Shown here one piece after another: positions 7,141 to 52,964 of a stretch of 64,000 nucleotides of DNA. The notes under the pieces were generated by a model. The model made no database searches. It was given only the letters and a program-made list of their open reading frames with translations, and was not told where the DNA came from. The DNA comes from Pecten maximus (taxonomy: Eukaryota), in the NCBI RefSeq assembly GCF_902652985.1, contig NC_047030.1, positions 4,898,001 through 4,962,000 of the forward strand, in the 5' to 3' direction. Position 1 is the first letter of the stretch. Each line of letters begins with the position of its first letter. The translations under genes were made by a program, and so were the position numbers.

Positions 7141-7471
7141 TACATGATATGGCGAAATTGTATGAAACTTTCAATATAATCTGTATATATATATATATAT
7201 ATATAAACTACACTTCACTGTATAAAGGTCCCTATGTAATCAAAAACTTGTAACCAAACCATCCCAATTCTTCTAGTGGTCCTGCCATACCCATGTTATT
7301 TTTGAAAGACATGCAATGTAGCATTTCCAAATTTTTACACAAATTGGTGTTTGGTTCCACAAATCCTAAAAGAGTTCATCAATGGAAACCCATGGTTTAT
7401 TGCATTACACTACACTCTGTGGGTATCCATCTAAAAAAAGTTTGTCACAATTTGCAAGTTATGTATCAACA

Positions 7472-28948: not shown

Positions 28949-29029
28949 TCACTTCTTCTGACGTGGCTTCTTGTCCTTGAAGCTGTGACTTTTGTTTGAC
29001 TTGGATGTTGACAGTTTGGGTTTCTGTGC
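28949..29029 (-). CDS. EXOSC10: EXOSC10 exon 22 (last coding)
   Basis: [17 protein letters not shown]; AATAAA at 28928-28923 just downstream. Confidence 0.85.
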   Translation of the reverse strand, partial: AQKPKLSTSKSNKSHSFKDKKPRQKK

Positions 29030-32000
29030 CTGGCAACAAGAAAACTGTATAATTATAATATCCATCAACAACAATCATAAGCATGCACTGTCCTATTATA
29101 CTAACTGTATACAGGCATCTATTCTTAGACTAGTTAATGCCTTTTCCCCTTATCCTCAAATCCATCTTATCTGAGAGTCTCTCCACACATTAAGTGTATC
29201 TGTTGGACTTAAAGAGTCTAGCTACTTTCAGTTAAATAAACCTTTTTTACTAAAGACGAGCTGTCTACGATGTCTGTGCTTATACACAGGGACCTGAGAG
29301 GTTGCTACAACCAAAGAAAATCACACTTTTCAGTTATTATGTATCAACTACTTGTTAACAGGTCACTCACCTTGTTACCTTTGCCCTTTGACCCATAGTA
29401 CCTGTTGGGGTTATACACGTTTGATTTACCAGCTGAAGCGCCACCTACAACCAAATTTAATTAGTTAATACATTGACTGATCCTATGGAATCCTTTATCA
29501 ATAACTTACTGTTGGCATAATCAAGCTACACATTTTTTCACAAAGCCACAATGTTTGTAGCCAATATATTTCTATACTGCATTAACAATCTGACTCAGGC
29601 CAAATTCCTGTTAAATGTTCTTGTCAAGATGATGATTACACAAATTCTGTACTACAGGAAATAAAAACATAACAAAACAACATGATTAGGGACATGTTAA
29701 ACAACAAAGCAAAATTATACAAAGTGACAAACACTAGTCTTGATGAAACTTTAGTGTGGCATATTGCCAGACAAGCTGCACATTATCAGCACAGGGGCCC
29801 CAATAGGTTGTAAAAGTTTTGACAAATCCAATTGAACACATAAAGGTGATTGTTCAGCTAGGTTATATACATTTAAGGGGAGATGTAAAGGTACATTATA
29901 TTGTAATAGACCACTTTTAATTAATACTCTTCTTGAAGATAGTACAGGTTGGATTGTATTATTCCATCATATTTACCCTGAAACATGCTGCTGTCTGCTT
30001 TGCTGTAGTCGTAAGGCTGGAAACTATCCTCCAGATCTGCTACACTTTTAGTCTTCTTGTTCTTCTTTTTCTTCTCGTCTGCTTCAGTCAAGTCCTTTGT
30101 GACGCCAATCTTCTCCACTTTCTGCAACTTACTGTACTTTGCTTTTAATATCTGAAAATTATTTACCAGACAAAGTGAATTTGAAATGAATTTGATTACA
30201 ATCATGGGGTATCTATTATGTATTCAGAGTCCCAAAAATATAACAAATATTGTGTAAACCTTAAATGAATGGTTATTTTTGAAATCCATGTGTCCCTCTC
30301 TCAAAATTATGATGGCTGATTGATACGTTGTGAGCCTCATACTGAAGGATTTGAATTATTCCAGACATATTGTATTATTTTTCAACATAATTCCCTTCAG
30401 TATCTATACACTTTTGCCAGCAGTGTTTAAGGGCCTCAATGCCACTTTTATTGAACTCCTTTCTTGGCTGTTCAGAAAGTAAATATACTGCATGTCAGGG
30501 TTAGGGTGCCTGAAATAGCTATTTACAGTTTTGGAAAATAGATGAAAGTCTGATGGAGCGAGATCAGGTGAATAATATTGCGGATGCTCGATCAATTTAA
30601 AGCCACAATTGTGAATGGTAGCCATGGCAATAACAGACTCTTTCATCTAACCAGTTTTGTCCATTTTGCAAAAGCCGCTTGCTGTGTTTACTTTAGAGTG
30701 CTATCTTGTCGATATAAACTAACCAAATGAGACCAGTTCTTGGGTACAGGGCCGTATATAGAGAATAGAATGACTTTAAAAGAACATCCTTGAGTACCTC
30801 CTTCAATACGAGGCTCACAACTTATCAATCAGCCCTCGTACATACTGTATCTATTCTGCATCATTTGGTTTTCAGATGTTGGCAATTTCTCAAGATACTT
30901 CAAACCTAGCTTTATCTTACATAAAAATTTGCAACAAGAACATTACAACTTAGCTTGCAAGTGGATAAAAACCATAGTTCAATGAACCACAATTAATCCT
31001 GACCAGAAGTAATAAATTGTTCAAAAGATGATACCAATATGGTCTAATAAGATAACAGACCTGTGATAGTGTTTTACGAGGAGTTGATTCTTCCTCTGCC
31101 TTTTCCTCGTTTTCTTCCTTTTTTTGTCGCTTGGCAGGAGGACCTGTAATAAGAGAATCTCCTATTTAAATAAGTTTAGTACAAAATTCAACTATCCATA
31201 AGGATGCATCCTACCTTATTTACAAAGTCATGCATCTCCTTCCAAAAGAGTTCCACATAAGAATACATCAAAAAGAGTTCCACTTAAGGATACATCCTAC
31301 TTTGTTTATGAAGTCACGCATCTCCTTCCAAAAGAGTTCCATTTAAGGATCCATCCTACTTTGTTTATGAAGTCATGCATCTCCTTCCAAAAGAGTTCCA
31401 TTTAAGGATCCATCCTACTTTGTTTATGAAGTCATGCATCTCCTTCCAAAAGAGTTCCACTTAAGGATACATCCTACTTTGTTTATGATGTCATGCATCT
31501 CCTTCCAAAAGAGTTCCACTTAAGGATACATCCTACTTTGTTTATGAAGTCATGCATCTCCTTCCAAAAGAGTTCCACTTAAGGATACATCCAACTTTAG
31601 AATTAATCAACAATTTAAATCTCAACTAAAACCCGCCAAAAAAGTTCATGAATTAATTTTCTAAACTATATTCTCTAACCATGATAGAATGCCCTTTTCT
31701 AATTTTTGATTATTTTTTCCTCTATCAGTTCCACTGTGACAGTTTTAATACACATGTATTGATATTTTTCATTTTTTGTCATTGGGTACCTGGAGCTGGA
31801 GAGGATGTGGCCTTTTCCTCAGGTAACTTTCTTTTAACTGTGTTCTTGACTAGTTTCCATTTCACATCAATCTATAAAACACAACAGGAATTACTTTCAT
31901 GTACAAACAGTGGAGTTTTTTGGAAACCAGGAAATGGCATTATACAACATAATTGTTTTTAGTACAGGACACACATTATACATGTCAGTTTTAGTCCAAT

Positions 32001-35000
32001 GACGGTACATGAACAATATTAAAAACCAATGGTGAAATCATTTACAGCCTAATACTTATTATTACCTATTTCACAGCAGAATGTAACTAATATTGTAGAT
32101 AATTTGATAACTTTTCATGAAATTGCTGAGAGTTATCGGTAAAAGTGGAAACTGTTATCCACATTTTAATCAATAATAAATAATATGATCTTAAATGGGT
32201 TTTCATTTCATGTGCAATTGAGATTTTATGAAATGAGTCCTAAATCAAAGTCATGAAATGAAACAAATTTATGATACTTTATACATGACTCAGAAAACTT
32301 AGATTTCTACCGATTTGATAAAGTCAACATGTGGAAGACTAAATCAAAAGTAGACAACCATTTTGTTGTGTCATTCACAATTCATCACATCATGTGACGT
32401 CATTATCCAATAGTATGATGTCACATCTATTTCTGACTAGCACTGCAGATGAAAAATGCTCCATTATAAAAAAATATTACACATGTGAATTTACTGGATA
32501 ACAGACAGATTATGCAATAAATCTATTAATAAAATGTGTATATAGAGGTTACACAACAAGTGGTTGTTGGATATGGTTTTTATTTCACACGAGTAAGTTA
32601 TTTTTTTAAAGTTACAAAAGACACGAGCTTTAGCGTTATTTTACTCGTGTGAAATAAATTCCATATCATACCATCACAAGTCATGTGACCTGTTTTTACC
32701 ACAATAATATCGGCTGGAATCAAAGGGAAACGTTGCCAAGTCTTATTTCGCATATACAAATAAGTTGTACAGGTGACGGCTGTGACCCGGTGATGTGACG
32801 TCACTCCATTATCAATTACAATTGCAGCTCGGGTCAAAGTTCAAATTCTTGACCAATCAAAAGACCGGAAGGTCATATTCCACTAGTGGTATATAGCATA
32901 TATTTATCCAACAGTCGGGACATTTATACAATGGCTTGAGAGTGGAATAATACAGCGTATTATGGTAGAAATATAACATGTACATCCTTCCTGAAATAGA
33001 AGGTATGGATGTTAACATGCACTCACCAACTGTATGCCCCCAGATGAGTTTGAATTCAAATTTGCCTTTGTCTTCACCGGAGATTCCTTTATAATCGGTA
33101 AGTACTACAAATATACAGATATTTACATTTTAACTCATTCTCAGTGATTCATAGTTCAGCAGTTAATTAGCACATACCAGGATTATACATACCAGGATTA
33201 TGGTTCTCATTAATGAATAAAATTGACTTGTAAAGCTGTGAGGTACGTATATGGACAGAAATACTACACAAAGACATGACACATAACTAGGTATAGTGAT
33301 ATATGTATCAGGTAATCTACAAACCTATACAGATATTTCATTTTGGACAGAAATTTTACAAAGATGGTAACCTCTAGGGAAAAAGTTTTCCAGAGTTATC
33401 TATATAGAGATAGCAGCAATGCTTGTAAGGGCAACACTTAATAGATTTTTGTTTATACATCAGTATGTTGTATAGTGTGCCAATGTACACAAATCATATC
33501 TCTTCAATGACATTGCTAAATGAAACATCTAGTCAATATGGAAGAAGTCACCCTTGTCAATATATTAACACATTATGAAAACTTTCAGTAAATAAGTACT
33601 AGAAGTTACCTTTTCAAATGGACTGACAAAAAGTTCATGAATCTTGGCAGCAATCTTCATAGCTTGAGACTCTTTTTCTGTTTTCATCTAAATCGAAGAT
33701 AAAGCAGTATAAATATTTGTTTGACAGTCTCAAGTTAAATCTACACACCAAATGTACCAAAAAATCAAAATCCTGTCATAAAAACAATACAAAGAGATAA
33801 TTTGGATCTCATTTGGCCAATAATGTTCCAGACCAAATTTCATCAAAATCCATCCAGTAGTTCAGGACTAGTAGGGATTAAAGGATTTAGCTCAATTTTC
33901 ACTGTTAGACCCTGTCAGACCCTGTCTGTCCAGCTCCAGGGGAGCCAAGCTCTTATCTATAAAACATTGGATTTTCTTTGCCCAATTAAAGTTCATCAAA
34001 ATCCATTTGGGTAATCAGGACTATACTAGCAATTTAAATAATTTACCTCAATTTCCCCTATTGCCCCCTGCCCATCTGGCCCCAAGGGGAGCCACATACT
34101 TCATTTATACAACATTAGACCTCCTTTGCCCATTAATGCTCTAGACCATATTTCATCAAAATCCATTCGGGTTTTGGTCGATATAAAGGAAATATGAAGG
34201 ACAATGGATGGATGATGAACGAACAATAGACAGACTATGGATGTGTGCCTTGGCATAATCTCACAAGCCCTTTGGACCAGGCTAAATATGAGGTTGATGT
34301 AACTATAATTTAACTGTATAAAATGTTTCTGAAAGGTAGTACACTCACTTTTAGGGAGCTGTAAACAGTAAGATCTGGGTCTGTCTTCAGTGTGACACTA
34401 GGGTGAAGGTCAGAGAACTGTAGTGACAGGGGATAGTGGCTAGTCAGATTCCTGGGGTCTGGTAAAACAATATACAGAATCATTATAATCACTCTCATCT
34501 GGTAAACCAATATACAGATCATTATAATCACTCATCTGGTAAAACAATAAACAGAATCACTCATCTGGTGAAACAATAAACAGAATCATTATAATCACTC
34601 ATCTGGTAAAACAATATACAGAATCATTATAATCACTCATCTGGTAAAACAATATACAGAATCATTATAATCACTCATCTGGTAAAACAATAAACAGAAT
34701 CACTCATCTGGTGAAACAATAAACAGAATCATTATAATCACTCATCTGGTAAAACAATATACAGAATCATTATAATCACTCACTCATCTGGTAAAACAAT
34801 AAACAGAATCATTATAATCACTCTCATCTGGTAAAACAATATACAGAATCATTATAATCACTCACTCATCTGGTAAAACAATATACAGAATCATTATAAT
34901 CACACTCATCTGGTAAAACAATATACAGATCATTATAATCACTCTCATCTGGTAAAACAATATACAGAATCATTATAATCACTCACTCATCTGGTAAAAC

Positions 35001-38000
35001 AATATACAGAATCATTATAATCACTCACTCATCTGGTAAAACAATAAACAGAATCATTATAATCACTCACTCATCTGGTAAACAAATATACAGAATCATT
35101 ATAATCACTCTCATCTGGTAAACCAATATACAGAATCATTATAATCACTCACTCATCTGGTAACTAGATAATTTTAATTTTTACAATTCACAAGAATTTA
35201 TGTCACTAGAAAGAAAGAAAAAAATATCTAATCTCTGTGGGTTGTAATTGGAAATTATATTTAATATATGTATATAATATTAATATTATATCCATATATT
35301 AAATATAATTTCCAATTACAGGTTAGACTGTATTTGTTTTAATAGAGGTATATTATATAATATTACTGATATATTAAAAGAGTTAACTACATCTTGCTTA
35401 TTATTACAGTTGTTCAATACCTTATCGCCCCTTTGTAAAGCACCTTATCAACAAGACTTTTGTTAACCATCAAGAAAACTTTGTGTTTACAGTCATCATG
35501 CCCCATTAAATTTTACATAAAACTTTACTGTCATACCTGAACGTTTCCCAGGAGTTAAGTATTACTGTCATACCTGAATGTTTCCTACGAGTTAAGTATT
35601 ACTGTCATACCTGAATGTTTCCCAGGAGTTCAGTATTACTGTCATACCTGAATGTTTCCCAAGAGTTCAGTATTACTGTCATACCTGAATGTTTCCCAGG
35701 TGTTAAGTATAACTGTCATACCTGAATGTTTCCCAGGAGTTCAGTATTACTGTCATACCTGAATGTTTCCCAGGAGTTAAGTATTACTGTCATACCTGAA
35801 TGTTTCCCAGGAGTTCAGTATTACTGTCATACCTGAATGTTTCCCAGGAGTTCAGTATTACTGTCATACCTGAATGTTTCCCAGGGGTTCAGTATTACTG
35901 TCATACCTGAATGTTTCCCAGGAGTTCAGTATTACTGTCATACCTGAATGTTTCCCAGGAGTTCAGTATTACAGTCATACCTGAATGTTTCCCAGGAGTT
36001 AAGTATTACTGTCATACCTGAATGTTTCCCAGGAGTTCAGTATTACTGTCATACATGAACGTTTCCTATGAGTTCAGTATTACTGTCATACCTGAATGTT
36101 TCCCAGGAGTTCAGTATTACTGTCATACTTGAATGTTTTCCAGGAGTTCAGTATTACTGTCAAACCTTAATGTTTCCCAGAAGTTCAGTATTACTGTCAT
36201 ACCTGAATGTTTCCCAGGAGTTCAGTATTACTGTCATACCTGAATGTTTCCCAGGAGTTCAGTATTACTGTCATACCTGAATGTTTCCCAGTAGTTCAGT
36301 ATTACTGTCATACCTGAATGTTTCCCAGGAGTTCAGTATTACTGTCATACCTGAATGTTTCCCAGGAGTTCAGTATTACTGTCATACCTGAATGTCTCTC
36401 AGGAGTTCAGTATTACTGTCATACCTGAATGTTTCCCAGGAGTTCAGTATTACTGTCATACCTGAATGTTTCCCAGGAGTTCAGTATTACTGTCATACCT
36501 GAATGTGTCCCAGGAGTTCAGTATTACTGTCATACCTGAATGTTTCCCAGGAGTTCAGTATTACTGTCATACCTGAATGTTTCCCAGGAGTTCAGTATTA
36601 CTGTCATACCTGAATGTTTCCCAGGAGTTCAGTATTACTGTCATACCTGAATGTGTCCCAGGAGTTCAGTATTACTGTCATACCTGAATGTTTCCCAGGA
36701 GTTCAGTATTACTGTCATACCTGAATGTTTCCCAGGAGTTCAGTATTACTGTCATACCTGAATGTTTCCCAGGAGTTCAGTATTACTGTCATACCTGAAT
36801 GTTTCCCAGTAGTTCAGTATTACTGTCATACCTGAATGTTTCCCAGTAGTTCAGTATTACTGTCATACCTGAATGTTTCCCAGGAGTTCAGTATTACTGT
36901 CATACCTGAATGTTTCCCAGGAGTTCAGTATTACTGTCATACCTGAATGTTTCCCAGGAGTTCAGTATTACTGTCATACCTGAATGTTTCCCAGTAGTTC
37001 AGTATTACTGTCATACCTGAATGTTTCCCAGGAGTTCAGTATTACTGTCATACCTGAATGTTTCCCAGGAGTTCAGTATTACTGTCATACCTGAATGTCT
37101 CTCAGGAGTTCAGTATTACTGTCATACCTGAATGTTTCCCAGGAGTTCAGTATTACTGTCATACCTGAATGTTTCCCAGGAGTTCAGTATTACTGTCATA
37201 CCTGAATGTTTCCCAGGAGTTCAGTATTACAGTCATACCTGAATGTTTCCCAGGAGTTCAGTATTACAGTCATACCTGAATGTTTCCCAGGAGTTAAGTA
37301 TTACTGTCATACCTGAATGTTTCCCAGGAGTTCAGTATTACTGTCATACATGAACGTTTCCTATGAGTTCAGTATTACTGTCATACCTGAATGTTTCCCA
37401 GGAGTTCAGTATTACTGTCATACTTGAATGTTTTCCAGGAGTTCAGTATTACTGTCAAACCTTAATGTTTCCCAGAAGTTCAGTATTACTGTCATACCTG
37501 AATGTTTCCCAGGAGTTCAGTATTACTGTCATACCTGAATGTTTCCCAGGAGTTCAGTATTACTGTCATACCTGAATGTTTCCCAGTAGTTCAGTATTAC
37601 TGTCATACCTGAATGTTTCCCAGGAGTTCAGTATTACTGTCATACCTGAATGTTTCCCAGGAGTTCAGTATTACTGTCATACCTGAATGTCTCTCAGGAG
37701 TTCAGTATTACTGTCATACCTGAATGTTTCCCAGGAGTTCAGTATTACTGTCATACCTGAATGTTTCCCAGGAGTTCAGTATTACTGTCATACCTGAATG
37801 TTTCCCAGGAGTTCAGTATTACTGTCATACCTGAATGTTTCCCAGGAGTTCAGTATTACAGTCATACCTGAATGTTTCCCAGGAGTTAAGTATTACTATC
37901 ATACCTGAATGTGTCCCAGGAGTTCAGTATTACTGTCATACCTGAAAGTTTCCCAGGAGTTCAGTATTACTGTCATACCTGAATGTTTCCCAGGAGTTCA

Positions 38001-41000
38001 GTATTACAGTCATACCTGAATGTTTCCCAGGAGTTCAGTATTACTGTCATACCTGAATGTTTCCCAGGTGTTCAGTATTACTGTCATACCTGAATGTTTC
38101 CCAGGAGTTAAGTATTACTGTCATACCTGAATGTTTCCCAGGAGTTAAGTATTACTGTCATACCTGAATGTGTCCCAGGAGTTCAGTATTACTGTCATAC
38201 CTGAATGTTTCCCAGGAGTTCAGTATTACTGTCATACCTGAATGTTTCCCAGGTGTTAAGTATAACTGTCATACCTGAATGTTACCTGGATGTTTCCCAG
38301 GAGTTCAATATTACTGTCATACCTGAATGTTTCCCAGGTGTTAAGTATAACTGTCATACCTGAATGTTACCTGGATGTTTCCCAGGAGTTCAGTATTACT
38401 GTCATACCTGAATGTTTCCCAGTAGTTCAGTATTACTGTCATACCTGAATGTTTCCCAGGGGGTCAGTATTACTGTCATACCTGAATGTTTCCCAGGTGT
38501 TAAGTATAACTGTCATACCTGAATGTTTCCCAGGAGTTCAGTATTACTGTCATACCTGAATGTTTCCCAGGAGTTCAGTATTACTGTCATACCTGAATGT
38601 TTCCCATGGGTTCAGTATTACTGTCATACCTGAATGTTTCCCAGGAGTTTAGTATTACTGTCATACCTGAATGTTTCCCGGGAGTTAAATATTACTGTCA
38701 TACCTGAATGTATCCCAGGAGTTCAGTATTACTGTCATACCTGAACGTTTCCCAGGAGTTCAGTATTACTGTCATACCTGAACGTTTCCCAGTAGTTCAG
38801 TATTACTGTCATACCTGAATGTTTCCCAGGAGTTAAGTATTACTGTCATACCTGAATGTTTCCCAGGAGTTCAGTATTACTGTCATACCTGAATGTTTCC
38901 CAGGAGTTCAGTATTACTGTCATACCTGAATGTTTCCCATGAGTTCAGTATTACTGTCATACCTGAATGTTTCCCAGGAGTTCAGTATTACTGTCATACC
39001 TGAATGTTTCCCAGGAGTTCAGTATTACTGTCATACCTGAATGTTTCCCAAGAGTTCAGTATTACTGTCATACATGAACGTTTCCTAGGAGTTCAGTATT
39101 ACTGTCATACCTGAATGTTTCCCAGGAGTTAAACAGGGTCTCTGAGTTCGAGATAATGAATTTTGACTGTATACATGTATTGTGTTCGTGTTTATTTAAA
39201 AATTGCTCTGAATAATAATAATAAGTTATATAAACCAATAAGTGTTTTTCCTTAATGGCCTTGAGAAAATGAGTATGGAGTGGTAGTACTTTTATTAGTA
39301 AAATAACCCGGCAGAAATTTTATATATCAATAGGAATCATGGCAACAAAAATAGATTTTGTCTTATTTAAGTGTGTATGTAGTAATTCAATGCTAACAGT
39401 AGTTTCTGTGACCATGAATATATACAGTTATTACCTGGTAACAACACGGACACATCACCTGGTTTCCTTGACAACTGGTGAGACAGATCATGAGGACAGA
39501 GGAGCAAGCTCTCTCCATCATACTTCGGGTGCTGCTGGTAAGATGGCCTGTTCACCTTTCTCTTTGTCACCTGTCAACGTTAGTAGAGTATTTTTCAATT
39601 TTTAACAATCAATCAAATATAATTATACACACTTTCTACACATTCTGTCCAAATGGAATCTATCTTCTTTCTAGAGATTCTCCAAGTGAGAGTTTGATTT
39701 GGACATTATGTACATCATACACATCAGTTATGTTAGGGTTGTTTCAAAATTATTCGTTTGGGAGGCATTTTTTGACAGACCCCACCACCCATCAAATAAT
39801 AATTTATAATATTACTTAGTTTAATAAGGAAATCTTAGACTAGAAAAATGCAGATTTACCCCCACCACCCATCAAATTTTGATAGTGCCTCTGATCCCTC
39901 CCACAGACAATTCTGGTTCCTTATATTATTTACTGGTATTGTGAACTTCCAAAAAATTATGGCAATTAAATCTGGGAGTTTGCTGTATAAAATGACTTTT
40001 GAAGCTGTTGAATGCCAACAATGCAATTTACTTCCCTTGATCTCGCAAGGGATTCATATACAGAAACCAAATATTCATTTTCGCAAGCAAAGTATCTGGT
40101 GATGTCAGTGATATTTGATACTTCCATCCTTCGTTGATAGGAAGTTTTATGTTATCTGTACAATGGAAACAAGTCTGATAGACAAGAAATCATATATCGA
40201 CGTGCGCTTGACTACAAGAATTTAGAGCAAAATAGTTTTCTCTAATGGTTTGCCCGAAAGGTGGCACACCTGTAGTGGTATATGAAATACACATGCAGCT
40301 TGTGAGCTGGCAAATCAGTTCAGGACAACGCACTGGTCAAAACGGATTGATTAAAATTTTCAATTTTAATTTAATTGTATAAGTCGTGTGACAAGAGGAT
40401 ACCAATATTGTACAATTTTGCCTGTTAAAGTGTTATATAAGATGATGAAAACATCTTTGTAATTTTGTATTAGTTGATGATGAAATGACATTACTGGTGC
40501 AGGCTGGTGCATTGTGAACAGCCTATCAGTGTTTTCTTTTGCCATCTGGGCTGGGTCATTGGAGAAAGGCTATATTATAATAATACATTTGTGTATCATA
40601 TCAAGGCTTTTCCAGTACCCAAAGGGAGGATCTCCATGTTTAATAAATGGGGACCACCAAAATAAATGATTGAATTCAAACAGTAACATGTATAATAAGC
40701 CAACATCTCTTTCTAGCTGATCATGCATAATATTTCTTTATTTCTCTTGTTTTCCCACAGGCCATATACAGTGTATATAATATTACGCTGGAATAGCCTT
40801 TAACTATTTACAAATATTTTCTGTCCTGACTAATTTGTTTGTATAATTGTGACGGATCAGACCAGAATACTAGCTGTAGTTATCTATTTACCTTTTCGAG
40901 AGGTTTCTCCCTGGCGTCGGAGATGATACCATGAACCTCCGGGAGATACTGCCTCGCTAGTGGAGGGATTGGGTTACAACAGGCCAGTACTCCCTGTCTC

Positions 41001-44000
41001 TCCCGGGGAAGGATCTCCACAATCTGGAGCAGCATGTGGTTCGGTAACACATACCTACATAGGTAAAAATACCTACAGTCAAAGCTGCCTTAGCGACCAC
41101 CTGAATTAAGCGACCCCCTCTCATATAAGACCATATTTTTTCCTCCAAATGTTAATTCCCATACAAGTGACCTGAATTAAGTGATCACCTGTCAAACGCC
41201 TGTAATGAGCATCATTTCTGTGTCCCAAATACTGAAAAGTGACTTTTTTCTCTGACTTTCTGAGTTTTGAAAGGAAAGCAGAAATCATAATCAAGAAGAA
41301 ACTGGACAATACTGTCCACATTTAAACATAAAAAAGCTTCAAGTTTTCCTTGAGAAGTATAAAAAATGCATAAACAGTCAACTTACTGTTAAACTGAGGT
41401 TTATATTCTTTTGAGACATTAGAACAGATATTTTCCAGTGAAAAAAAACGTCTCCGTTATGATGTAGGAAATGCAGTAATGTAACTTATAATCACGACGA
41501 AGTTCTGACCAGGAATGGTCAGTTTTTTCCTTTAATACTGGTTTTTAGTATAAGCATCACTCATAAATTTTAAGATCTTTTTTTTTCATACAAAATTCCA
41601 GAATCCAATCTTGCCTGGCTATAAACCTCAAAGTGGCACACATATTTTGTTAAGACACAAAAACAGCATGAAATTTAAAGCTTTTTTTACTAGATAAAGC
41701 TCTTCTGAAATTCAGTGCACTTACAAACTTTGAGGACAACAATGGCAAAAGTATAGCATCACAAAATTATACAGTACTGTTGTACATTACTGGCCTACTA
41801 CACAACAGTTGGATTGAAATAAGGACAGACTGTCAAAAAACATGGGTTGTATTTGTCAATTGTTAATGATATGCATGATCATTAGTCTTATGACACGATT
41901 ACTGTCAGCAGCTCTCCTAAGTTTACTGACCCGAGACTTTCATCCTCGCGTCGTCCTGTCTGGTCTCTCCACATATACAGGTTCTTCAGGGCATCAAGTT
42001 GCTGAGAGTTGAATACCTTTTTACTTTTATGGTACAGGTCTAAAAAGTCATCCTCCTTAAAAATGTATTTTTTGTATATCTGGAAAATGTGAAACATTTA
42101 TCTGATTAATGAAATGTCTGTTTTTACATGTACATTGTTTGTCCTTGTTCAAATTCTCTATCTGCCCAGAGTGGACTAACCAATGAAATGTAATTTCCTT
42201 TGTAAAAAAATAAATGAAAACTAGAGTTTCTGAGATTATAAAAGGAAGGACACTGCCTAATTAATAAATAAGCAATTGTAAATACAAACCCATTACAAGC
42301 AATATATCAACATTCAGAAAACATCACCTTTGCACAAATTTCCTTGCTCCTGTTGAAGACAGACATGAGGAGATTTTTCTGCTCATTTCCCCGTTCTATC
42401 AGCTCGTTTTTCAACTTGTCATAGATGTACAGTAAATAATGAGTGTCCTCCCGGGCATATGCTGTTAGTTCCTTTGGTAAGGGTCTGAAATAGACACAAC
42501 CTAATTGTTATCAATCTTATTCCATTTTCCATCTTATTAAAAAATTCTACTGTAACAGTCAATTGTACATTTGGGTCTCAGACACACTGTATATCATTTC
42601 GCATTTATCAATTTTTTTTAAATTAAAGAAAGTCCTGTATGTAGCTCTTTGTGATGAATCATAGCATGGTCATGGACCAATTTTGTTTATCATGATCCAA
42701 ATGATTTGACTGGTGTGACCAGAGTTTTTCGATTTATGAAACTCAACTTAGATCAGATCTATTGATCTTATATTTGTATAAGTCTTAACAAAGACTTCTA
42801 AGGCCTGTATTAATATCTGCAGATCTGTGAAGGTTTATAACTGAAATGTTAAATTTTCTCACCGTATCCTCCAGTCTGCCAGCTGGTACTGTTTGTCAGC
42901 TTCCACACCACAATATTGTTTGAGAATATGAGCCAGAGAGAAACGGGCTAAGTTTAGCACCCTGGCAGCTTGGCCTGTGTCAAACATATTCACCACATAT
43001 AGACTAAGATCCCTCTGAAGCCATTCCACATCAGAGTCAGCACCGTGGAATACCTTCAATACAAAACATCAAATTACTCTGGTACTCTGATCCAGTACTG
43101 ACAATATGTACAATAAAACATACACCTGGCATTATTCTGACTAGTGACCATTCATTAGAATCCCTTAACACATACATTTTCTGTCATCAAATTAACACAA
43201 CTTTTATTAACTACTTCTGATATATAAATACTGAATAATCGTCATGATTATTGCATATCTTTCAAACTGCTCCCTATGTATGAACATTTCAGGCCCTTCA
43301 CATCACTGACGAGTCATAGAGAGACGAAACTGCCTGCTTTGTGATGCAGTTTACTTAATATTGGCTCTACTGTACTGTCCTGAATTTCCTCGATTATTTA
43401 TAATACTAATTGATTTTTCTTGAGAGAGAATCACCTCATGTTAAAGCAGTTAGACTCCATTGTTTCGTTGTTTGATATATTCTCATCCATGTACTTGACT
43501 ATCACATGAAGTATGTAGTAAAATTTGTTGCCGACCACCTGCACCTGAAACCCAAACTCACTCACTGGGACAAGGTATTTTTATATTTGACCATTATATG
43601 AAGTATATTCAAAATCTGTTTTAGAATGAAGTCTCTAAGAGTGATTAAAAAAATATTTGATAAAAAGTGACAGTGACCTTGTCCTTGATCTTGGCTCCCT
43701 GTAACATTTACTAATTCACGGCTTCTCATACTCAACCAACATAAACTTGTTTTAGGTTACTAGTAACTGATGTATAAAATTTTAAAAGTTGTAAGTGTGC
43801 TGACAAAAAATTTCTATAAATAGTTAAGGTGACATTGTCCTTGACCTTTGCACCTTGAAACACAAACTCGTTTGAGGTATCGTCATTCTTGACCAATGAA
43901 TACAGTTTTATTGAAATCTGGGTGAAAATGCCTTCGCCAGAGCATTGACAAAAGGTGAACATATGAATAAACGTATGAACAGAACTACATATCCTCTCCC

Positions 44001-47000
44001 TGACTTTGTCCCAAGGGAATAATCAAAATTCATTAAACAAAGCTTCACAGCCGTATTCCTGTTCAATAAGGTAAACAAGCATGCTGGGTATTGCTAAAAG
44101 CAATACATATCTCCTATGGCCACTCGCTAAAAAGAGTAACACTTGCCAAAAAACCTTAAACCTCAAACTTGATCTGTAGCTACTGAAGTTACATACCAAC
44201 TTTCACCGACATACCTTGAAGTATGGCTGAGAAAAGCTGATTGAATTGACTGACAGCTGATGGCTGGCTGGACAGATGAACTGATGGACAGGAGTTCCCC
44301 CAGTTTCAAAGATAGGGGACTAATAAGTTTAGCCCATAACCCAAATCAAACATATCACCACAATGATGTATACATGCAGGTCTACCTACTGTAAAAATAC
44401 TTGGAAATGATGAGAATATGATATACCTAAACAGCATTATAATTATAATCACAACAAAATGCTTTCAGTGTAAAAGCCTTAAAAGAATATTACCGCTAAA
44501 ATATAAATGTTTACATTAAGTAAGTATTTGACAAACCTTGACTATGTTTGGGTCTGTGAACACACTGTTGAGTAGGTGAAGGTCACTACGAAGTTCGATT
44601 GTGTCTATGATAAAATCTTCATCTCGTGTAGATATCTGCATGAGACAAGTAATTCCCTGGAATGTCCGGTACGAATGGTGCTGGAAAAGAGCATCGTTAT
44701 GTTAGACAAGAAACTTCTATTATATCAAATACATGTAATAATAGAACATTGGTGTGGTGATTTATGACATTATATATAATTAGTGACAGGTTCTCTCATT
44801 TGAAAAACGTATGCATAAAAAACACTATTGTGTCAATACGTGATGATGTCACAGGATTGTTTTTGTGGTGGAAACTACCGTTTGAGTTGAAATTACCCGG
44901 TCTTATGAGAAAAGCAATTTGCTTATATAAGTTATGTTATCAATCAAATCTTACACTGAAGTCTTATGGATATTAATAAACTTGTTCAGGCTCAATAAAA
45001 TTAATTGCTTGGTTCTCGAACAAATTTTCTAGAAAGAAATGAGGAAGAGAGTTATTTTTGCTATCTTTTTACTGGTCAAAAGCAGACGAGGGCATGTTTT
45101 TTTGGTGGTTTTTTTTTCAAAACTTATCATTTTCCATTTTTATATAAACTGTTTCAAAATGTGGGGAAAAAAATATCTATTACGGTTGTTTTTGTTTCAC
45201 ACTAATGAAAATGTGCTCTAATTTTATCACTAGAGATATCATATGGAAAGCTTTGTTCAACTTGTTGAATCGGATGTTTTTTTTCCATACACTAGGACAA
45301 TGTATACAGTTCTAACGAGAGTACTATAAATATCATTTCTTATGTGTCAACTATACATGTCTCTATACCTCCAAATCTACTGCCACAGCCTGACACGACT
45401 TGAGCTTGTCACACAAAGCCACTAGCTGTGGGACCTTGGTTACCATGGTGAGGGGTGTGTCATCTACTGGACGTGGTTCCTGAAAACCAATGTCAAAATC
45501 ATACCATGGACTTTAAATAATTCAGAACCTCAGAACTGTGATTTGGAAAAAAAGAAGAAAGCTTTAACCAGTCAATATCAATTTTGTTGATTACTACCAT
45601 GAAGTTATAATTACACATAGAAATACCTGTAAAGTTTTGGAACTGGATTTCAAATACTTTGAATATCTTGTCATGTTACCAAAATAAGTTTGATAAGCAT
45701 CACAGCATCCCTTTGTTATCAATGTTATGTGTTTAAAATATCTAAGGATACTGTTAAAAATAACTCACTATGGGTACAGCCGAGGTCAATGTGTCTGGTC
45801 GAGGTGTCCAGTGGTCAAGCTCATATTGGTATGGGTGTGGGTATCTGTAAGCACCAAGTGTATAGTAATCTTACCAACATGTGATATTAACAACATCCAA
45901 AATGTAATGTATCAAAATACATAATGTAATGTATCAAAATACATAATGTAATGTATCAACATACATAATATAATGCATCAAAATACATAATGTAATGTAT
46001 ACAAAATACATAATGTAATGTATACAAAATACATAATGTAATGTATCAAAATACATAATGTAATATATCAAAATACATAATGTAATGTATACAAAATACA
46101 TAATGTAATGTATACAAAATACATAATGTAATGCATACAAAATACATAATGTAATGTATCAAAATACATAATGTAATGTATCAAAATACATAATGTAATG
46201 CATACAAAATACATAATGTAATGTATCAAAATACATAATGTAATGTATACAAAATACATAATATAATGTATACAAACTATTGTGACATAGAAAAATGCAA
46301 TTAGTGATTAATTTGTTTTAAAATACAACATCTGTCAATCAAAATGTCTGATTCCATTAACAGTAGCTGACCACCTATATGTAAATACAGTAGGGTAACA
46401 GGATCAGAGAAAAAAAAATTAATGGATCTCTAATGTATTCTGAGAAGAAAGAATTTGTGGTTCATCGGTGTTTTATGAGTATTTATGGTTCATTAATTTT
46501 CAAAAAAAATTAATGGTTCCAGAAAAAATTAATGGTTCATTGATATTATTCTAAGAGGAAAGAATTAATGATTATTTAATGTTTTCTCAGCAGAAAGAGT
46601 TAATGGTTCATTTATGTTTGCTCTATATATAATAATTTAAAAGATCAATCCACTTACAGAAATGAGGGACTTTCAGTCATATCAGCTGTAACATCATCTG
46701 GTAACCGCAGACTGTCTATAAGTATATCAAAAACATTAAAATTTTACAACTTTCATGAATAATCTGTAAAATATAGGCTCTCAAAAAAAGTTATTGGAAA
46801 TTCATTTTTTAGAAAAATTATTTATACATTCAATTTGGCAGATATTTTGCCCATAGAATTTTACAATGTGTTCTATATAAGATATTTTTAATATGAAAAT
46901 CAGAGGAAAAAAGTTCATATTTTGCCCAGTTTCAATAAACATTTTATATTCCTAAAAACAACATCAACCTTAGATCCATCACATAAAACTTATTCAAGGT

Positions 47001-50000
47001 CATCGTAAACAGATGTGTTGTTTTTTTTTAAATGTTTGACATTGATAACAAACCAAGGCCTCCAGTGCAACAGTACCCTAGTCTCCAGTACAACATGACC
47101 TTAGTCTCCAGTACAATGGGACCTTAGTCTCCAGTACCATGGGACCTTAGTCTCCAGTACCATGGGACCTTAGTCTCTTGTACCACGGGACCTTAGTCTC
47201 TTGTACCACGGGACCTTAGTCTCAAGTACAACAGGACCATAGTCTCCAGTACAATGGGACCTTAGTCTCCAGTACCATGGGACCTTAGTCTCCAGTACAA
47301 TGGGACCTTAGTCTCCAGTACAATGGGACCTTAGTCTCCAGTACAATGGGACCTTAGTCTCCAGTACAATGGGACCTTAGTCTCCAGTACCATGGGACCT
47401 TAGTCTCCAGTACCATGGGACCTTAGTCTCTTGTACCACGGGACCTTAGTCTCTTGTACCACGGGACCTTAGTCTCAAGTACAACAGGGACCTTAGTCTC
47501 CAGTACAATGGGACCTTAGTCTCCAGTACCACGGGACCTTAGTCTCCAGTACAACACCACCTTAGTCTCCAGTACAATGGGACCTTAGTCTCCAGTACAA
47601 TGGGACCTTAGTCTCCAGTACCATGGGACCTTAGTCTCCAGTACAATGGGACCTTAGTCTCCAGTACCATGGGACCTTAGTCTCCAGTACAACAGGACCT
47701 TAGTCTCCAGTACCATGGGACCTTAGTCTCCAGTACCATGGGACCTTAGTCTCCAGTACAACAGGACCTTAGTCTCCAGTACAATGGGACCTTAGTCTCC
47801 AGTACAATGGGACCTTAGTCTCCAGTACAATGGGACCTTAGTCTCCAGTACAATGGGACCTTAGTCTCCAGTACAATGGGACCTTAGTCTCCAGTACAAC
47901 AGTACCCTAGTCTCCAGTACCAATGGGACCTTAGTCTCAAGTACAACAGGGGACCATAGTCTCCAGTACAATGGACCTTAGTCTCCAGTACCATGGGACC
48001 TTAGTCTCCAGTACAATGGGACCTTAGTCCTCCATTACCATGGGACCTTAGTCTCCAGTACAAATTGGACATTAGTCTCCAGTACAATGGGACCTTAGTC
48101 TCCAGTTACAATGGGACATTAGTCTCCAGTACAATGGGACCTTAGTCTCCAGTACATGTACTTAGTCTCCAGTACCTTAGTCTCCAGTACACATGGGACC
48201 TTAGTCTCCAGTACAATGGGACCTTAGTCTCCCGTACAAATGGGACCTAGTCTCCAGTACAATGGGACCTTAGCCTCCAGTACACAGTGGACCCTAGTCT
48301 CCAGTACCAATGGGACCCTTAGTCTCCAGTACACATGGACCATAGTCTCCAGTACAATTGGGACCTTAGTTCTCCATTGTACCACAGGAACTTTAGTCTC
48401 AAGTACCACATGGGACATAGTCTCCAGTACAATGGGACCTTAGTCTCCAGTACAACATGGTACCCTTCGTCCTCCAGTACAATGGGACCTTAGTCTCCAG
48501 TACAATGGGACCTTAGTCTCCAGTACAACGGGACCTTAGTCTTCAGTACAACGGGACCTTAGTCTTCAGTACCATGGGACCATAGTCCCCAGTAGAATGG
48601 GACCTTAGTCTGCAGTACAACGGGACCTTAGTCTCCAGTACTATGGGACCTCAGTCTCCAGTACAATGGGACCTCAGTCTCCAGTACAACAGGACCTTAG
48701 TCTCCAGTACAACGGGACCTTAGTCTCCAGTACTATGGGACCTTAGTCTCCAGTACAACGGGACCTTAGTCTCCAGTACAATGGGACCCTAGTCTCCAGT
48801 ACAACAGGACCTTAGTCTCCAGTACCATGGGACCTTAGTCTCCAGTACAACAGGACCTTAGTCTCCAGTACAATGGGACCTTAGTCTCCAGTACCACGGG
48901 ACCTTAGTCTCCAGTACAATGGGACCTTAGTCTCCAGTACAAAGGACCTTAGTCTCCAGTACAACGGGACCTTAGTCTCCAGAACAACAGGACCTTAGTC
49001 TCCAGTACAACAGGACCTTATTCTCCAGTACAACATGACCTTAGTCTCCAGTACAATGGGACCTTAGTCTCCAGTAACACAGGACCTTAGTCTCCAGTAC
49101 AGCAGGACCTTAGTCTCCAGTACAACAGGACCTTAGTCTCCAGTACAACAGGACCTTAGTCTCCAGTACAACAGGACCTTAGTCTCCAGTACAACAGGAT
49201 CTTAGTCATCAGTACTACTGGACCTTAGTCTCCAGTACAATGGGACCTTAGTCTCCAGTACAACAGGACCTTAGTCTCAAGAACAACAGGACCTTAGTCT
49301 CCAGTACCATGGGACCTTATATAATTAGTCTCCAGTACAATGGGGTCTTAGTCTCCAGTACAAGTCACACATACTAACCACTATTGAAAACAATTTGAAC
49401 AGTGTGTACCTTCTAGAGACTTAAGAGCATTGGGTTTCTCCTTTATTCGAGGGACAAATGGTTGATTTCCATTATCGACTTTGTCTTTGAAGCGTAATTG
49501 TGGACGCAAGATATTTTTAGCTGATAGAAGATGATAGCTGGCAGGACTCTTTGCTGCAGATGTGCTTTTCTACAACAAAAGAAATTACAGTTTTATTTCA
49601 TCAACTGATAGCTGGGAACACAAAGGGAAATGATTTGTGAATTGTCAGTATGATAGTTGACCATGTGATGTCCTTGACAGCTAGTTTATTTATAACCATG
49701 GCAATGTGACCTTAAAGAAGGTCATGGTCAATTGACAGACAGGTTGTATATTGATACAATGTTGGGGATACCTTGTACCATCAGACCACCCAGACTTTAA
49801 AATGTAATGTTAGTATATGATGAACTTCCATTCTTTTGTTTTCTCACACTAAAAAACCTATAACAGTAAATCTGCCTCATAGCCATATGTAAATATTTTA
49901 AAAAGTATTTTGGTGGCTGATAAACAATAGATAACAACAGTGACATGCAATAATTCCAACCAATGAATAAATTACAAATTCTGATTGATAAACAGAACCA

Positions 50001-52964
50001 GTCATGTTGTCTACTGTAAGTGTGTAATTGATAATAAGAACAACACCAGTAGCCATACACAGACCAACCTTTTTGTTCCAGCTTGTAGAGGCCTGTTGCT
50101 TTGGTGTGGCCGATGCAATAACAAGTGTGTTATCCTTCTTCTTGATTCCTGAAGCTTCATCTAACCAGCTTCCCTGGAACAAAATTTCTTGATTTAAGAT
50201 TTTCAATCAATACCATATTTCTGTTCTGTCAAGAAAACATTTTTTTTTTGTTCTGTCAAGAAAATAATTTGTCTGAAGTTTGTCAGAGCTAGATGTCAGT
50301 AATGTTGGTAAAAACAACTTCAAAGCCACTACCTGGTAGGTATTTTTGTCACTATGTCAGAGAGGAGTTATCATACTTTGTATTTTATGATAGAATGATG
50401 GAATGAATGCTTGTTTTGCTACCAAGTAACTGTGGGTATATTGTTAAACATTGGTAAAGACCACAGGGTATTGTGGGAGACCCAGTGTCCTCAGACCTGT
50501 ACATAACTCATTAAATACAGAACTGTCTCATGACAATTCCGGTATGAATAAAATCTGGGACCGGTGGATTACTAGTCTGAAGCTCTACTTAGCTACAGAA
50601 AACTGCTCATCACAAAACCACTATAGGCTAAAGGGGAATTCCTACAACAGAGCGCAGGTTAGGTGACCATGCTCTCTGCTTTTACATTATATAATCCACA
50701 GAATTCCAAAAGGTGGGTAATAGACATATTCCTATAACACTCTTTCTGAAAAACAAGAAACCCAGATAATACACTGACCACTCTCTCCAGTATCTGGTCG
50801 TTTGCATCAGTCAACACATCAAATTTGTCTTCCAGGTCGAGAACATCTGAACTGCCGTGGGACAGTTTGCCTCTGACGTTCTGATGCTGCATCACATTCT
50901 GCACTCTACAATATACATTGACAGACACATACATATATATATCACTTATCTGCAATAGGCAAAAAATGGGAAAACAATTACAGGCTAGAACCTTACAAGT
51001 ACAGTATCACTCAAGACTGCAGGAAAATCAAACTAAGTAGACATTGTGCACATAAATAAATATATAATTATAAAAGTCAACAAAAAACATTGAATTGATT
51101 TCCTTTCTATAAAACGCATACAGACACCTGCACCATTCTTGAAAGAAAGGAGAAATTTTAAGAAACAAATTTTATCAAATAACTAATCTATGAAAAAAAA
51201 AACAGAAACAAAAAACGGTAATTAGTCTTATATTCAATTTTCAATTTGTTTATTAACCTTGAGCTTTAAAATTTACAGCTCATCAGTACAAACATGTATA
51301 ACAATTCATACATTGTTCAGTATATTTCATGTCCTGATAAAACGTACCTCTCTTATATGTATTATGACATCATGATATTATGGTATGTACATAATTATAT
51401 GCAAATGATTTTCAGGAAGAAATTATTTACATTTGAAACATTTAATGAATTCTATAAAAACATCCGATGCAACAATTGGATTTTGGAAATGTGTTGTGAA
51501 TAATAAGGACATTTAACAGACAATTTATAATTATTCAAAATTCAGGTTCAATATATGGGATCTTCCTCCAAATTAGGGAAGATTGTTAAGTTTAAATTGT
51601 TGTTATCAGATTACAAGAAGTAAATAACCTCACACTTATGGTGTTATTCATATTTACATGTGGAGGATTTGTTTCCCTTCTATGTCCAGTATGTCTCTGA
51701 ATCCTTGGAAACTGGAGTAATAATCAAAGTCATCTCCTGCAGCTGGCAATTCATTGGAAGATTTTGTAGCTTGTAGCACAGCACGAAGCGTTTTCTGAAA
51801 CATACAAATCAGTATAACATAAATCACCAGCAGTGAAACAAACTCAACTATGAAAAATAAAAGTCACTGTATTTTATATTTGAACATGTACATAATGGTG
51901 GGTCAACAGTATGAAATTTTGACTAGCGAAAAGCGAGGGTCTATACAGACGGAATAAAACACCTAGATGGCACTAAATGTGTGTTCTGGGGTATAAATAT
52001 CTCATTTATCCATATATGTAAGGTAAGTGTTATGTCACACCCGATTTTACTGTATTTGCACCAAATTCTTAGCGACACCAAACGGTGTTAGATAATTCCA
52101 CGTTTTCACATAGCAGTGCGCTCTGGCCCTACACCAGACATGTTGTCACTCCCAGAGGAATCTCAGGCAAAGCTGTATATAGCTATTGACTATTGTGGTG
52201 GAACACTATTATAGTGAAATCAGGGTTTCTCCCCAACCTGTCTTGCCCGATTAAACGTCTGAAAATATAAACTTCTACACACTAACATCAACTTCATGTC
52301 TGGATAACCTGGCCAAATTTCCTCCAGCCCCTCAAAGCACAGTATATATTTATACTGATAATTACATTTAGGTTCATGATCATATACTGTATAATGTCAG
52401 TTCGTCAAAATGTCTACTGTCTGGTGTTGAGAGCCAGAAGGCATCTGTCCGGTAAAATACTTAAAGCCTTGTAACTGGGCTAGCTCGGGTTAAAATACAG
52501 TACATCTGACGGACATAAAGTAGTGTATACGTAGTTGACCATGATTTTTATGAATTTTATATAAGTTTTCAGATACAGTGTAGATATCTAAAGGGTCAAA
52601 ACATGTAAAATAGAGAAGTCAATTGAAACCCAAAAGTCATATCTGATTTTGGAGAGTCAAAAAATACTCTCGCAGATCTACAGTACAGCTATATAGATGC
52701 CCTTTTGGCTATACATTTAATACAGATCTATCTAGACTGATATTAAAATTGTAGGAGGTCCATGTGATCAAACAGAGCACGTGCAAGGTATCGCAATACA
52801 TCAAACAAAGAATAATTCAACCTAATGTACTTTACATAAGAATTTTTAAGGAAAAACTATCCTTAAGAACACTAAATTACCTGTGTAAATTCTGTAACAT
52901 CTTTTATTCCGGGTAAAAACTCCTCTGTTGTTGCGTTCGTGGATGTTTGCATGGGCGTCGCCAT
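28949..52964 (-). CDS. EXOSC10: Exosome component 10 (Rrp6/PM-Scl100): PMC2NT, DEDDy exonuclease and HRDC domains; 22 coding exons; 852 aa
   Basis: Exons reconstructed with GT-AG sites and matching phases (sum 2559 nt). Motifs: [137 protein letters not shown]. All DEDDy catalytic residues are present. Confidence 0.96.
29371..29444 (-). CDS. EXOSC10: EXOSC10 exon 21
   Basis: [20 protein letters not shown]; AAG|GTGAGT. Confidence 0.85.
29977..30151 (-). CDS. EXOSC10: EXOSC10 exon 20
   Basis: [17 protein letters not shown]. Confidence 0.9.
30310..30838 (-). mobile_element. Same mariner MITE family, copy 2 (in an EXOSC10 intron)
   Basis: Colinear with copy 1; TIRs and TA; retains [13 protein letters not shown]. 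Confidence 0.9.
31061..31143 (-). CDS. EXOSC10: EXOSC10 exon 19
   Basis: [10 protein letters not shown] (NLS-like); phase 1 to 0. Confidence 0.82.
31195..31595. repeat. 59-bp minisatellite, about 6 copies
   Basis: Unit AAGGATACATCCTACTTTGTTTATGAAGTCATGCATCTCCTTCCAAAAGAGTTCCACTT. Confidence 0.93.
31790..31871 (-). CDS. EXOSC10: EXOSC10 exon 18
   Basis: [19 protein letters not shown]. Confidence 0.82.
32540..32970. mobile_element. Non-autonomous palindromic DNA element (family uncertain)
   Basis: Internal inverted repeat GATATGG...TTATTTCACACGAGTAA (about 32570-32596) / TTACTCGTGTGAAATAA...CCATATC (32641-32667). Confidence 0.5.
33027..33104 (-). CDS. EXOSC10: EXOSC10 exon 17
   Basis: TGTAG|TAC (YLP...)...TTG|GTGAGT. 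Confidence 0.82.
33610..33687 (-). CDS. EXOSC10: EXOSC10 exon 16
   Basis: [18 protein letters not shown] (compare human KKAQNIMESFENPFRM, recalled). Confidence 0.85.
33790..34290 (+). mobile_element. Decayed HINE-like element
   Basis: Diverged TTTCATCAAAATCCAT units, GGAT/GAC microsatellite remnant, terminal hairpin remnant. Confidence 0.5.
34349..34458 (-). CDS. EXOSC10: EXOSC10 exon 15
   Basis: TTTTACCAG|AC...AAA|GTGAGT; phase 1 to 0 fits; low-conservation region. Confidence 0.78.
34459..35162. repeat. Minisatellite with units of about 38-42 bp (about 19 copies) whose unit includes the EXOSC10 exon 15 splice acceptor
   Basis: Unit CTGGTAAAACAATATACAGAATCATTATAATCACTCAT. Confidence 0.95.
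35525..39132. repeat. 37-bp satellite-like array, about 97 copies
   Basis: Unit ACTGTCATACCTGAATGTTTCCCAGGAGTTCAGTATT. Confidence 0.98.
39435..39570 (-). CDS. EXOSC10: EXOSC10 exon 14
   Basis: [10 protein letters not shown]; donor G|GTAATA (an alternative in-phase G|GTGATG lies just upstream). Confidence 0.85.
40892..41054 (-). CDS. EXOSC10: EXOSC10 exon 13 (HRDC)
   Basis: [32 protein letters not shown]. Confidence 0.94.
41074..41225. mobile_element. Tigger/pogo-like MITE fragment next to the exon 13 acceptor
   Basis: TACAGTCAAAGCTGCCTTAGCGACCACCTG terminus with an internal GACCACCTG-like repeat. Confidence 0.5.
41931..42079 (-). CDS. EXOSC10: EXOSC10 exon 12 (HRDC start)
   Basis: [26 protein letters not shown]. 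Confidence 0.94.
42328..42484 (-). CDS. EXOSC10: EXOSC10 exon 11
   Basis: [22 protein letters not shown]. Confidence 0.95.
42863..43053 (-). CDS. EXOSC10: EXOSC10 exon 10
   Basis: [15 protein letters not shown]...YQLADWRIR. Confidence 0.95.
43530..44325 (+). mobile_element. Decayed HINE-like elements
   Basis: GTGACCTTG/AAACTTGATCTG cores, GAC/GAT microsatellite, terminal hairpin remnants. Confidence 0.45.
44537..44680 (-). CDS. EXOSC10: EXOSC10 exon 9
   Basis: [27 protein letters not shown]...FTDPNIVK. Confidence 0.95.
45369..45479 (-). CDS. EXOSC10: EXOSC10 exon 8
   Basis: DDTPLTMV...AVAVDLE (ExoI D/E). Confidence 0.93.
45769..45844 (-). CDS. EXOSC10: EXOSC10 exon 7
   Basis: [14 protein letters not shown]. 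Confidence 0.92.
45898..46275. repeat. 22-23-bp AT-rich minisatellite, about 16 copies
   Basis: Unit CAAAATACATAATGTAATGTAT(A). Confidence 0.95.
46658..46715 (-). CDS. EXOSC10: EXOSC10 exon 6
   Basis: TATAG|AC...CT|GTAAGT; needed to restore phase 1 to 2. Confidence 0.78.
47055..49362. repeat. 23-bp minisatellite, about 100 copies
   Basis: Unit GGGACCTTAGTCTCCAGTACAAT with CCAT/CAAC variants. Confidence 0.98.
49410..49569 (-). CDS. EXOSC10: EXOSC10 exon 5
   Basis: [39 protein letters not shown]. Confidence 0.92.
50069..50173 (-). CDS. EXOSC10: EXOSC10 exon 4
   Basis: GSWLDEASG...TSWNKK. Confidence 0.92.
50779..50905 (-). CDS. EXOSC10: EXOSC10 exon 3
   Basis: [19 protein letters not shown]. 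Confidence 0.92.
51658..51794 (-). CDS. EXOSC10: EXOSC10 exon 2
   Basis: [32 protein letters not shown]. Confidence 0.92.
52881..52964 (-). CDS. EXOSC10: EXOSC10 exon 1
   Basis: CAAG ATG GCG; MATPMQ...[13 protein letters not shown]; CAG|GTAATT. Confidence 0.85.

What the first reader, a model, noticed from the sequence alone, without database searches (positions are those of the whole stretch)
34459..35162. The real 3' splice site of an EXOSC10 exon has been tandemly amplified about 19 times
Seen: on the transcribed (-) strand each unit reads ATGAGTGATTATAATGATTCTGTATATTGTTTTACCAG, and the last copy is the acceptor of exon 15 (34458). About 18 near-identical decoy acceptors therefore precede the real one. 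Using the nearest decoy adds 40 nt (frameshift), and most others give G+AT GAG TGA, an immediate stop. Several units also read CCAG|ATGA|GTGAGT, an acceptor, 4 nt and a strong donor. Inference: either exon definition alone selects the right AG, or copy number tunes unproductive splicing and NMD of an RNA-surveillance nuclease.
Basis: partly seen in the sequence, partly recalled or inferred. Interest (0 to 1): 0.7.

Follow-up and report, generated by a model that had tools for sequence, protein, structure and literature searches.

The report
Repeated splice acceptor in scallop EXOSC10
The last ~38 bases of one intron of a scallop RNA-degrading gene, splice signal included, are copied 18 extra times in tandem, yet the assembled main RNA joins at the last copy; five or six of 212 other exon starts sampled in this genome look the same, so this is likely harmless clutter of a kind already described in lancelets.

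Summary
A 705-nt, locus-specific minisatellite (34459-35163; 18 units of 29-42 nt) puts 18 CAG acceptors ahead of the true acceptor (34458) of EXOSC10 exon 15. All 18 would give premature stops. Main RNA contigs from three studies join donor 39435 to 34458.

The regulatory reading is not supported. Stops are the default: 1 of 283 upstream YAGs in this gene's other introns keeps the frame. Arrays cover 6 of 212 kinase-exon acceptors in this genome, against 3.8-6.6 expected by chance, and 0 of 48 decoys in five of them keep the frame. The internal 'strong donor' scores weakly.

Best reading: a slippage-born 'mirage' (known from amphioxus, PMC3087553), likely skipped by exon definition. The scan has noted the same kind before: 48 notes in at least 12 genomes, including other genes of this genome. 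A small leak hidden by NMD is not excluded, because only contigs were available. Ordinary; interest 0.12.

The parts
34459..35163 (-). Acceptor minisatellite: 18 units of 29-42 nt plus a 7-nt partial unit; each whole unit has branch-like TNA motifs, a T-rich tract and CAG
34498..35156 (-). 18 decoy acceptors (first exon base at 35156 ... 34498); each gives a premature stop if joined to donor 39435
34349..34458 (-). EXOSC10 exon 15 (110 nt, phase 1 to 0); its acceptor is the last copy of the array
39435..39570 (-). EXOSC10 exon 14; donor at 39435; its last 7 nt equal the last 7 nt of the intron
35525..39130 (-). Second minisatellite in the same intron (37 nt x 97) with 94 AG|GT sites: donor-like (about 9 bits, real donor 6.6), poor as acceptors (about 1 bit)
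33610..33687 (-). EXOSC10 exon 16, joined to exon 15 in RNA contigs
28949..52964 (-). EXOSC10 coding span, 22 exons, 852 aa; five minisatellites fill 7302 of 21457 intron bases (34%)

Best explanation
The array is a tandem amplification of the exon 15 splice acceptor that the main EXOSC10 mRNA splices past, and it is likely a neutral slippage-born 'mirage' tolerated because exon definition favours the last copy. Shown: 18 intact decoys, 17 of which score at least as well as the real site; the main contigs enter at 34458. Inferred origin: slippage between two 8-nt direct repeats about 38 nt apart (the partial first unit matches the acceptor end over 7 nt plus the next base), then unequal exchange, which left a 122-nt exact internal duplicate. 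Inferred choice of site: splicing factors on the exon and its donor at 34349 commit the nearest upstream branch point and AG. Only the last AG is followed by exon-like sequence, and 16 of 18 decoys would make exons longer than any internal exon of the gene. Inferred from general knowledge: rare slips carry a stop 7 or more junctions before the end and would be removed by NMD, which keeps the cost low.
For: Junction 39435 to 34458: contiguous record coordinates in X1 and X2, and a loose end equal to the exon 15 start in X2 and X4 (three studies). X5 is consistent; the X3 row was not shown. Decoy scores are 7.1-10.7 bits against 8.0 for the real site, and local folding shows no selective masking (AG accessibility 0.02-0.29, real 0.14), so the site itself cannot decide. 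Exon-likeness of the 29 nt after the AG is -0.43 to -0.77 for 18 decoys and +0.43 for the real site; 19 of 20 other exons exceed the best decoy. Background: arrays span 6 of 212 kinase acceptors against 3.8 (naive) to 6.6 (locus-stratified) expected; 0 of 48 decoys in the five arrays with 5 or more copies keep the frame; 1 of 283 upstream YAGs in the other introns does. About 94 donor-like sites that outscore the real donor lie in the same intron and are also bypassed by the main contigs. Precedent: the BflGb6 acceptor mirage with normal RT-PCR splicing (PMC3087553, passages).
Against: All RNA evidence is assembled contigs, which drop rare variants, and NMD would hide a leak. Only X4 of the five RNA-type runs is on record as RNA. 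Run X2 holds a contig of 42-nt units at depth 15.6, about 3 molecules' worth. That fits unspliced RNA or DNA (an intronic contig of depth 2), but a leak of several percent would look similar. The 5-mer score measures coding-like composition, not tested enhancer activity, and one real exon scores as low as the decoys. Donor-spanning arrays exceed chance (16 of 202 against 6.7), so repeat load may not fully explain junction arrays. Kinase boundaries were called computationally, not from RNA.
Confidence: 0.85

Rival explanations
1. The array leaks: a few percent of transcripts use the nearest decoys and are destroyed by NMD, so longer alleles slightly lower EXOSC10 as an unselected side effect.
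For: Decoys are intact and score as well as the real site. The two nearest give exons of 150 and 187 nt, within the gene's range. X2 has an array contig. In human F7, identical pseudo-donors can be activated when the first is lost (PMC1557585, abstract and Discussion).
Against: Main contigs of three studies use 34458. The two nearest decoys are followed by intron-like sequence. The X2 contig consists of the 42-nt unit type, which in this assembly lies only in the far half of the array, and its depth fits background. Amphioxus mirages reportedly give no aberrant mRNA (PMC3902484, passage).
Confidence: 0.1
2. The array is a selected, copy-number-tuned switch that routes EXOSC10 pre-mRNA into NMD, possibly as feedback by the exosome.
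For: All 18 decoys give premature stops. The gene is an RNA-surveillance nuclease. Runs X18 and X2 hint at different unit arrangements between individuals.
Against: All-stop decoys are the default. Acceptor arrays occur at chance rate and in unrelated kinases. The array shows rapid turnover rather than conservation. A paper search for EXOSC10 with NMD and poison exon listed 3 papers, none on such regulation by title or abstract start (not read).
Confidence: 0.03
3. The copy number is inflated by assembly error.
For: The DNA-like X18 contig runs 415 nt beyond the second unit in one piece, which suggests a shorter or more diverged allele (inference).
Against: Twelve distinct unit variants in an ordered pattern. 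Units are present next to the exon in X18 and as a unit contig in X2.
Confidence: 0.02

Closest known systems
Amphioxus 'mirages' (BflGb6 acceptor type; BflGb9, Adh3, troponin C, PGBD5); PMC3087553 and PMC3902484, passages read
   Same: Minisatellite-like tandem copies of an intron/exon boundary. BflGb6 copies the 3' end of an intron with its acceptor, many copies keep splice signals, and regular splicing is reported as undisturbed.
   Different: Here there are 18 copies of a 29-42-nt unit holding only one exon base; BflGb6 has 3-6 copies of 150-160 nt with a longer exon part. The host is a mollusc, not a cephalochordate.
Human F7 intron 7 37-bp VNTR (PMC1557585; abstract and Discussion read)
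   Same: Identical, functional splice sites in a minisatellite, of which only the exon-adjacent one is used.
   Different: F7 repeats a donor, and the copies lie downstream. Here the decoys are acceptors transcribed before the real site, so first-come scanning along the intron cannot explain the choice.
Artificial 3' splice-site duplications (globin constructs, as summarised in the PMC1557585 Discussion; Reed and Maniatis 1986 recalled, not read)
   Same: Competition between identical acceptors is decided by position and flanking exon sequence.
   Different: Two engineered sites against 19 natural ones. The Discussion notes that early studies gave opposite results.
AS-NMD autoregulation by poison exons (recalled: SR proteins, hnRNPs)
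   Same: An alternative splice would add a premature stop in an RNA-processing gene.
   Different: No alternative isoform was shown, no conservation was shown, and the sequence is a fast-turning minisatellite.

Membership tests
Mirage minisatellite | Head-to-tail minisatellite-like repeats | tested here: met
   18 units of 29-42 nt
Mirage minisatellite | Unit spans an authentic exon-intron boundary | tested here: met
   The last unit ends in the used acceptor and the repeat includes the first exon base; the exon part is minimal, 1 nt
Mirage minisatellite | Copies retain splice signals | tested here: met
   18 of 18 keep CAG; 17 of 18 score above the real site
Mirage minisatellite | Regular splicing is undisturbed | tested here: met
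   Main contigs of X1, X2 and X4 join 39435 to 34458; met for the main isoform only, rare isoforms cannot be seen in contigs
Mirage minisatellite | Length differs between haplotypes | tested here: inconclusive
   X18 has an 11-nt shorter first unit and X2 a 42-nt unit contig; copy numbers could not be read
Mirage minisatellite | Turnover and homogenisation within the cluster | tested here: met
   122-nt exact duplicate at offset 143; repeated 38+29-nt pairs
Mirage minisatellite | Somatic instability (Adh3) | not testable with these tools
   No raw DNA reads from tissues
AS-NMD regulatory element | Stop-bearing isoform detectable, rising on NMD block | not testable with these tools
   Only contigs of older runs were offered
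AS-NMD regulatory element | Stop outcome more frequent than background | tested here: not met
   282 of 283 ordinary upstream YAGs and 48 of 48 decoys in other arrays also break the frame
AS-NMD regulatory element | Conserved across species | not testable with these tools
   G000 has no relatives held; only proteins of relatives were available
Microexon or recursive splice site in the acceptor array | AG directly followed by GT, or a strong donor after the microexon | tested here: not met
   Four bases lie between AG and GT; the donor scores 4.8 bits, near the 10th percentile
EXOSC10/Rrp6 | PMC2NT + 3'-5' exonuclease + HRDC domains | tested here: met
   PF01612 and PF00570 on window exons; PF08066 precomputed on P0001, which equals the model

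The most novel reading that the evidence does not exclude
Allele length of this acceptor array sets how much EXOSC10 pre-mRNA slips to an upstream decoy and is destroyed by NMD. A hypervariable intronic repeat would then be a natural dosage dial on the nuclear exosome nuclease, and the estimated 2-3% of scallop exons with such arrays a hidden layer of heritable expression variation.
Probability: 0.07. Interest if true: 0.55.

Novelty: new member of a known kind. Interest (0 to 1): 0.12.

Why it matters
As it stands it matters little: it is one of probably thousands of junction-spanning minisatellites in this genome (extrapolated from 6 of 212 acceptors and 16 of 202 donors). Its use is as a natural test case. 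With 18 intact acceptors upstream of the real one and almost no exon sequence in the unit, it separates exon definition from splice-site strength in a mollusc. If decoy use scaled with copy number under NMD block, such arrays would be expression-tuning VNTRs in farmed bivalves.

Tried and rejected
2) No decoy junction or loose end from donor 39435 into a unit was listed, and X1 and X5 had no contig on the two units laid. This is not evidence of absence: contigs drop rare forms, the tables were cut (42 and 136 loose-end rows unseen), and only the two exon-proximal units were laid.
3) Masking of decoys by RNA structure: no pattern.
Two GAG acceptors (34530, 34491) and two exon-internal CAGs also keep the ORF. 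None has RNA support.
5) The 20-site weight matrix from this gene alone was noisy; it rated the 37-nt array as acceptor-like, which the 212-site matrix did not.
6) Orthologous introns of other scallops could not be fetched.
7) Canestro et al. 2002 (PMC117041) is not held; it is known to me only through PMC3087553 and PMC3902484.
8) Paper searches listed no paper on scallop mirages or on this locus; the library lacks most subscription journals. No supplements were read; Additional file 4 of PMC3087553 would show how intact the BflGb6 acceptors are.

Full report
Observation. On the minus strand, 34459-35163 is a minisatellite of 18 whole units (29-42 nt, 12 variants) and a 7-nt partial unit. It gives 19 in-register CAG sites, the last at 34458. 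A DNA search of the own genome returned only the array itself. Each whole unit carries branch-like TNA motifs 21-39 nt before its AG and a T-rich tract.

Gene and exon. Exons read off the sequence give an open frame with exonuclease and HRDC domains. Without a 75-nt candidate exon that RNA contigs skip (4 of 4 runs), the 22-exon model equals P0001, which its source names exosome component 10-like of Pecten maximus. Exon 34349-34458 is exon 15, is needed for the frame, and aligns with the three other scallop proteins found.

Consequence of decoy use. All 18 upstream CAGs give a premature stop: 13 two codons after the junction and 5 after 14-27 codons. This is unremarkable. Only 1 of 283 YAGs lying 25-700 nt upstream of the gene's other acceptors keeps the frame. 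The donor motif four bases into six units is weak (4.8 bits; median of real donors 8.6).

RNA. Of 24 runs listed I laid six, all as contigs. In X1 and X2 one contig passes from 39435 to 34458 with contiguous record coordinates, and in X2 and X4 the loose end at 39435 is the start of exon 15. These are three studies. X5 stops matching at 34465, as expected from the 7 nt shared by the end of exon 14 and the end of the intron. The X3 row was not shown. X2 also has a contig of 42-nt units at depth 15.6, about 3 molecules' worth given a mean 31-mer multiplicity of 5. This fits unspliced RNA or DNA but does not exclude a leak. X18, a divergent DNA-like run, has at least two units next to the exon, the first 11 nt shorter, so the array is shared and probably variable. 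No raw reads and no NMD-blocked samples were available.

How the last AG is chosen. The sites cannot be told apart by strength (17 of 18 decoys score above the real one) or by predicted accessibility. They differ in what follows. The 29 nt after each decoy score as intron-like (-0.43 to -0.77), those after the real AG as exon-like (+0.43). Sixteen of 18 decoys would make exons longer than the gene's longest internal exon (191 nt). Exon definition from exon 15 and its donor is therefore the likely selector; this step is inferred, not shown. The same intron also holds a 37-nt x 97 array with 94 donor-like sites that mostly outscore the real donor, and the main contigs bypass them too.

Origin. 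The partial first unit matches the acceptor end over 7 nt plus the next base, and the array holds a 122-nt exact internal duplicate. This suggests birth by slippage between short direct repeats, followed by unequal exchange (inferred; the model is recalled).

How unusual is it? I took 80 regions (722 kb, 19% in tandem repeats) around mainly the short, multi-exon hits among 136 kinase matches in this genome; long single-exon hits and small-contig duplicates were mostly left out. Boundaries were called from profile matches. Of 7 acceptors and 18 donors with an array within 25 nt, 1 and 2 only abut and were dropped. Arrays span 6 of 212 acceptors (5 with five or more copies), against 3.8-6.6 expected by chance; 0 of 48 decoys in those five keep the frame. 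Donors are spanned in 16 of 202 cases against 6.7 expected (Poisson P = 0.0015; events cluster in loci, so this is overstated). That result goes against a pure repeat-load explanation for donors, but not for acceptors.

Comparison with what is known. Ebner et al. (PMC3087553, passages) describe 'mirages', tandem copies of intron/exon boundaries in amphioxus. These include an acceptor type in BflGb6, with regular splicing undisturbed. PMC3902484 (passages) repeats this for Adh3, troponin C and PGBD5. The human F7 VNTR (PMC1557585, abstract and Discussion) is the donor counterpart. The array works like a mirage and meets every defining feature that gave a clear result here; haplotype length variation is inconclusive. 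The label came to me from the scan's earlier notes, which also list 48 similar findings in at least 12 genomes; these are unchecked AI notes and are not counted as support.

Verdict. The feature is real and is a new member of a known kind. A neutral, tolerated repeat is most likely (0.85), then a small unselected leak (0.10), then a selected switch (0.03). Interest 0.12.

Noticed in passing
L036-L115 (80 kinase regions of G000): Minisatellites span 16 of 202 donors (6.7 expected) but 6 of 212 acceptors (6.6 expected); Fisher P = 0.027 for the difference, 0.28 if only arrays of 5 or more copies are counted. This could mean a donor-side hot spot of repeat birth or selection against acceptor copies.
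   Followed up: partly
L054 (- strand, 4365), L063 (5462), L086 (4444), L091 (- strand, 3213), L107 (4407): Five further acceptor mirages with 6-15 in-register decoys in kinase genes; L054, L091 and L107 also carry donor mirages, and L091 has one of 3.7 kb.
   Followed up: partly
window 35525-39130: 37-nt x 97 array in the same intron, with 94 AG|GT sites that look like donors and are weak as acceptors; recursive splicing through them would be invisible in mRNA contigs.
   Followed up: partly
window 39435-39441 and 34459-34465: The last 7 nt of exon 14 equal the last 7 nt of intron 14, so aligners can shift this junction by up to 7 nt.
   Followed up: yes
window 47060-49319, 45901-46276, 31244-31598: The other three EXOSC10 arrays lie 91, 57 and 101 nt from an exon without covering the boundary.
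   Followed up: partly
window 19928-20149 (+): A 42-nt x 5 array whose unit has a consensus-like branch point motif ends 9 nt before an acceptor-like site; the gene context was not established.
   Followed up: no
window 10256-11038 (-): Open frame with a glycosyl transferase family 8 match (E = 1.5e-07).
   Followed up: no
P0002 and P0004: The Mizuhopecten protein lacks the segment matching exon 16, and the Argopecten protein repeats about 220 N-terminal residues, possibly an annotation or assembly artefact.
   Followed up: no
window 6800-7150 (+) and 30300-30850 (-): Two similar short stretches that look like remnants of a mariner-type transposon (recalled resemblance, not tested).
   Followed up: no
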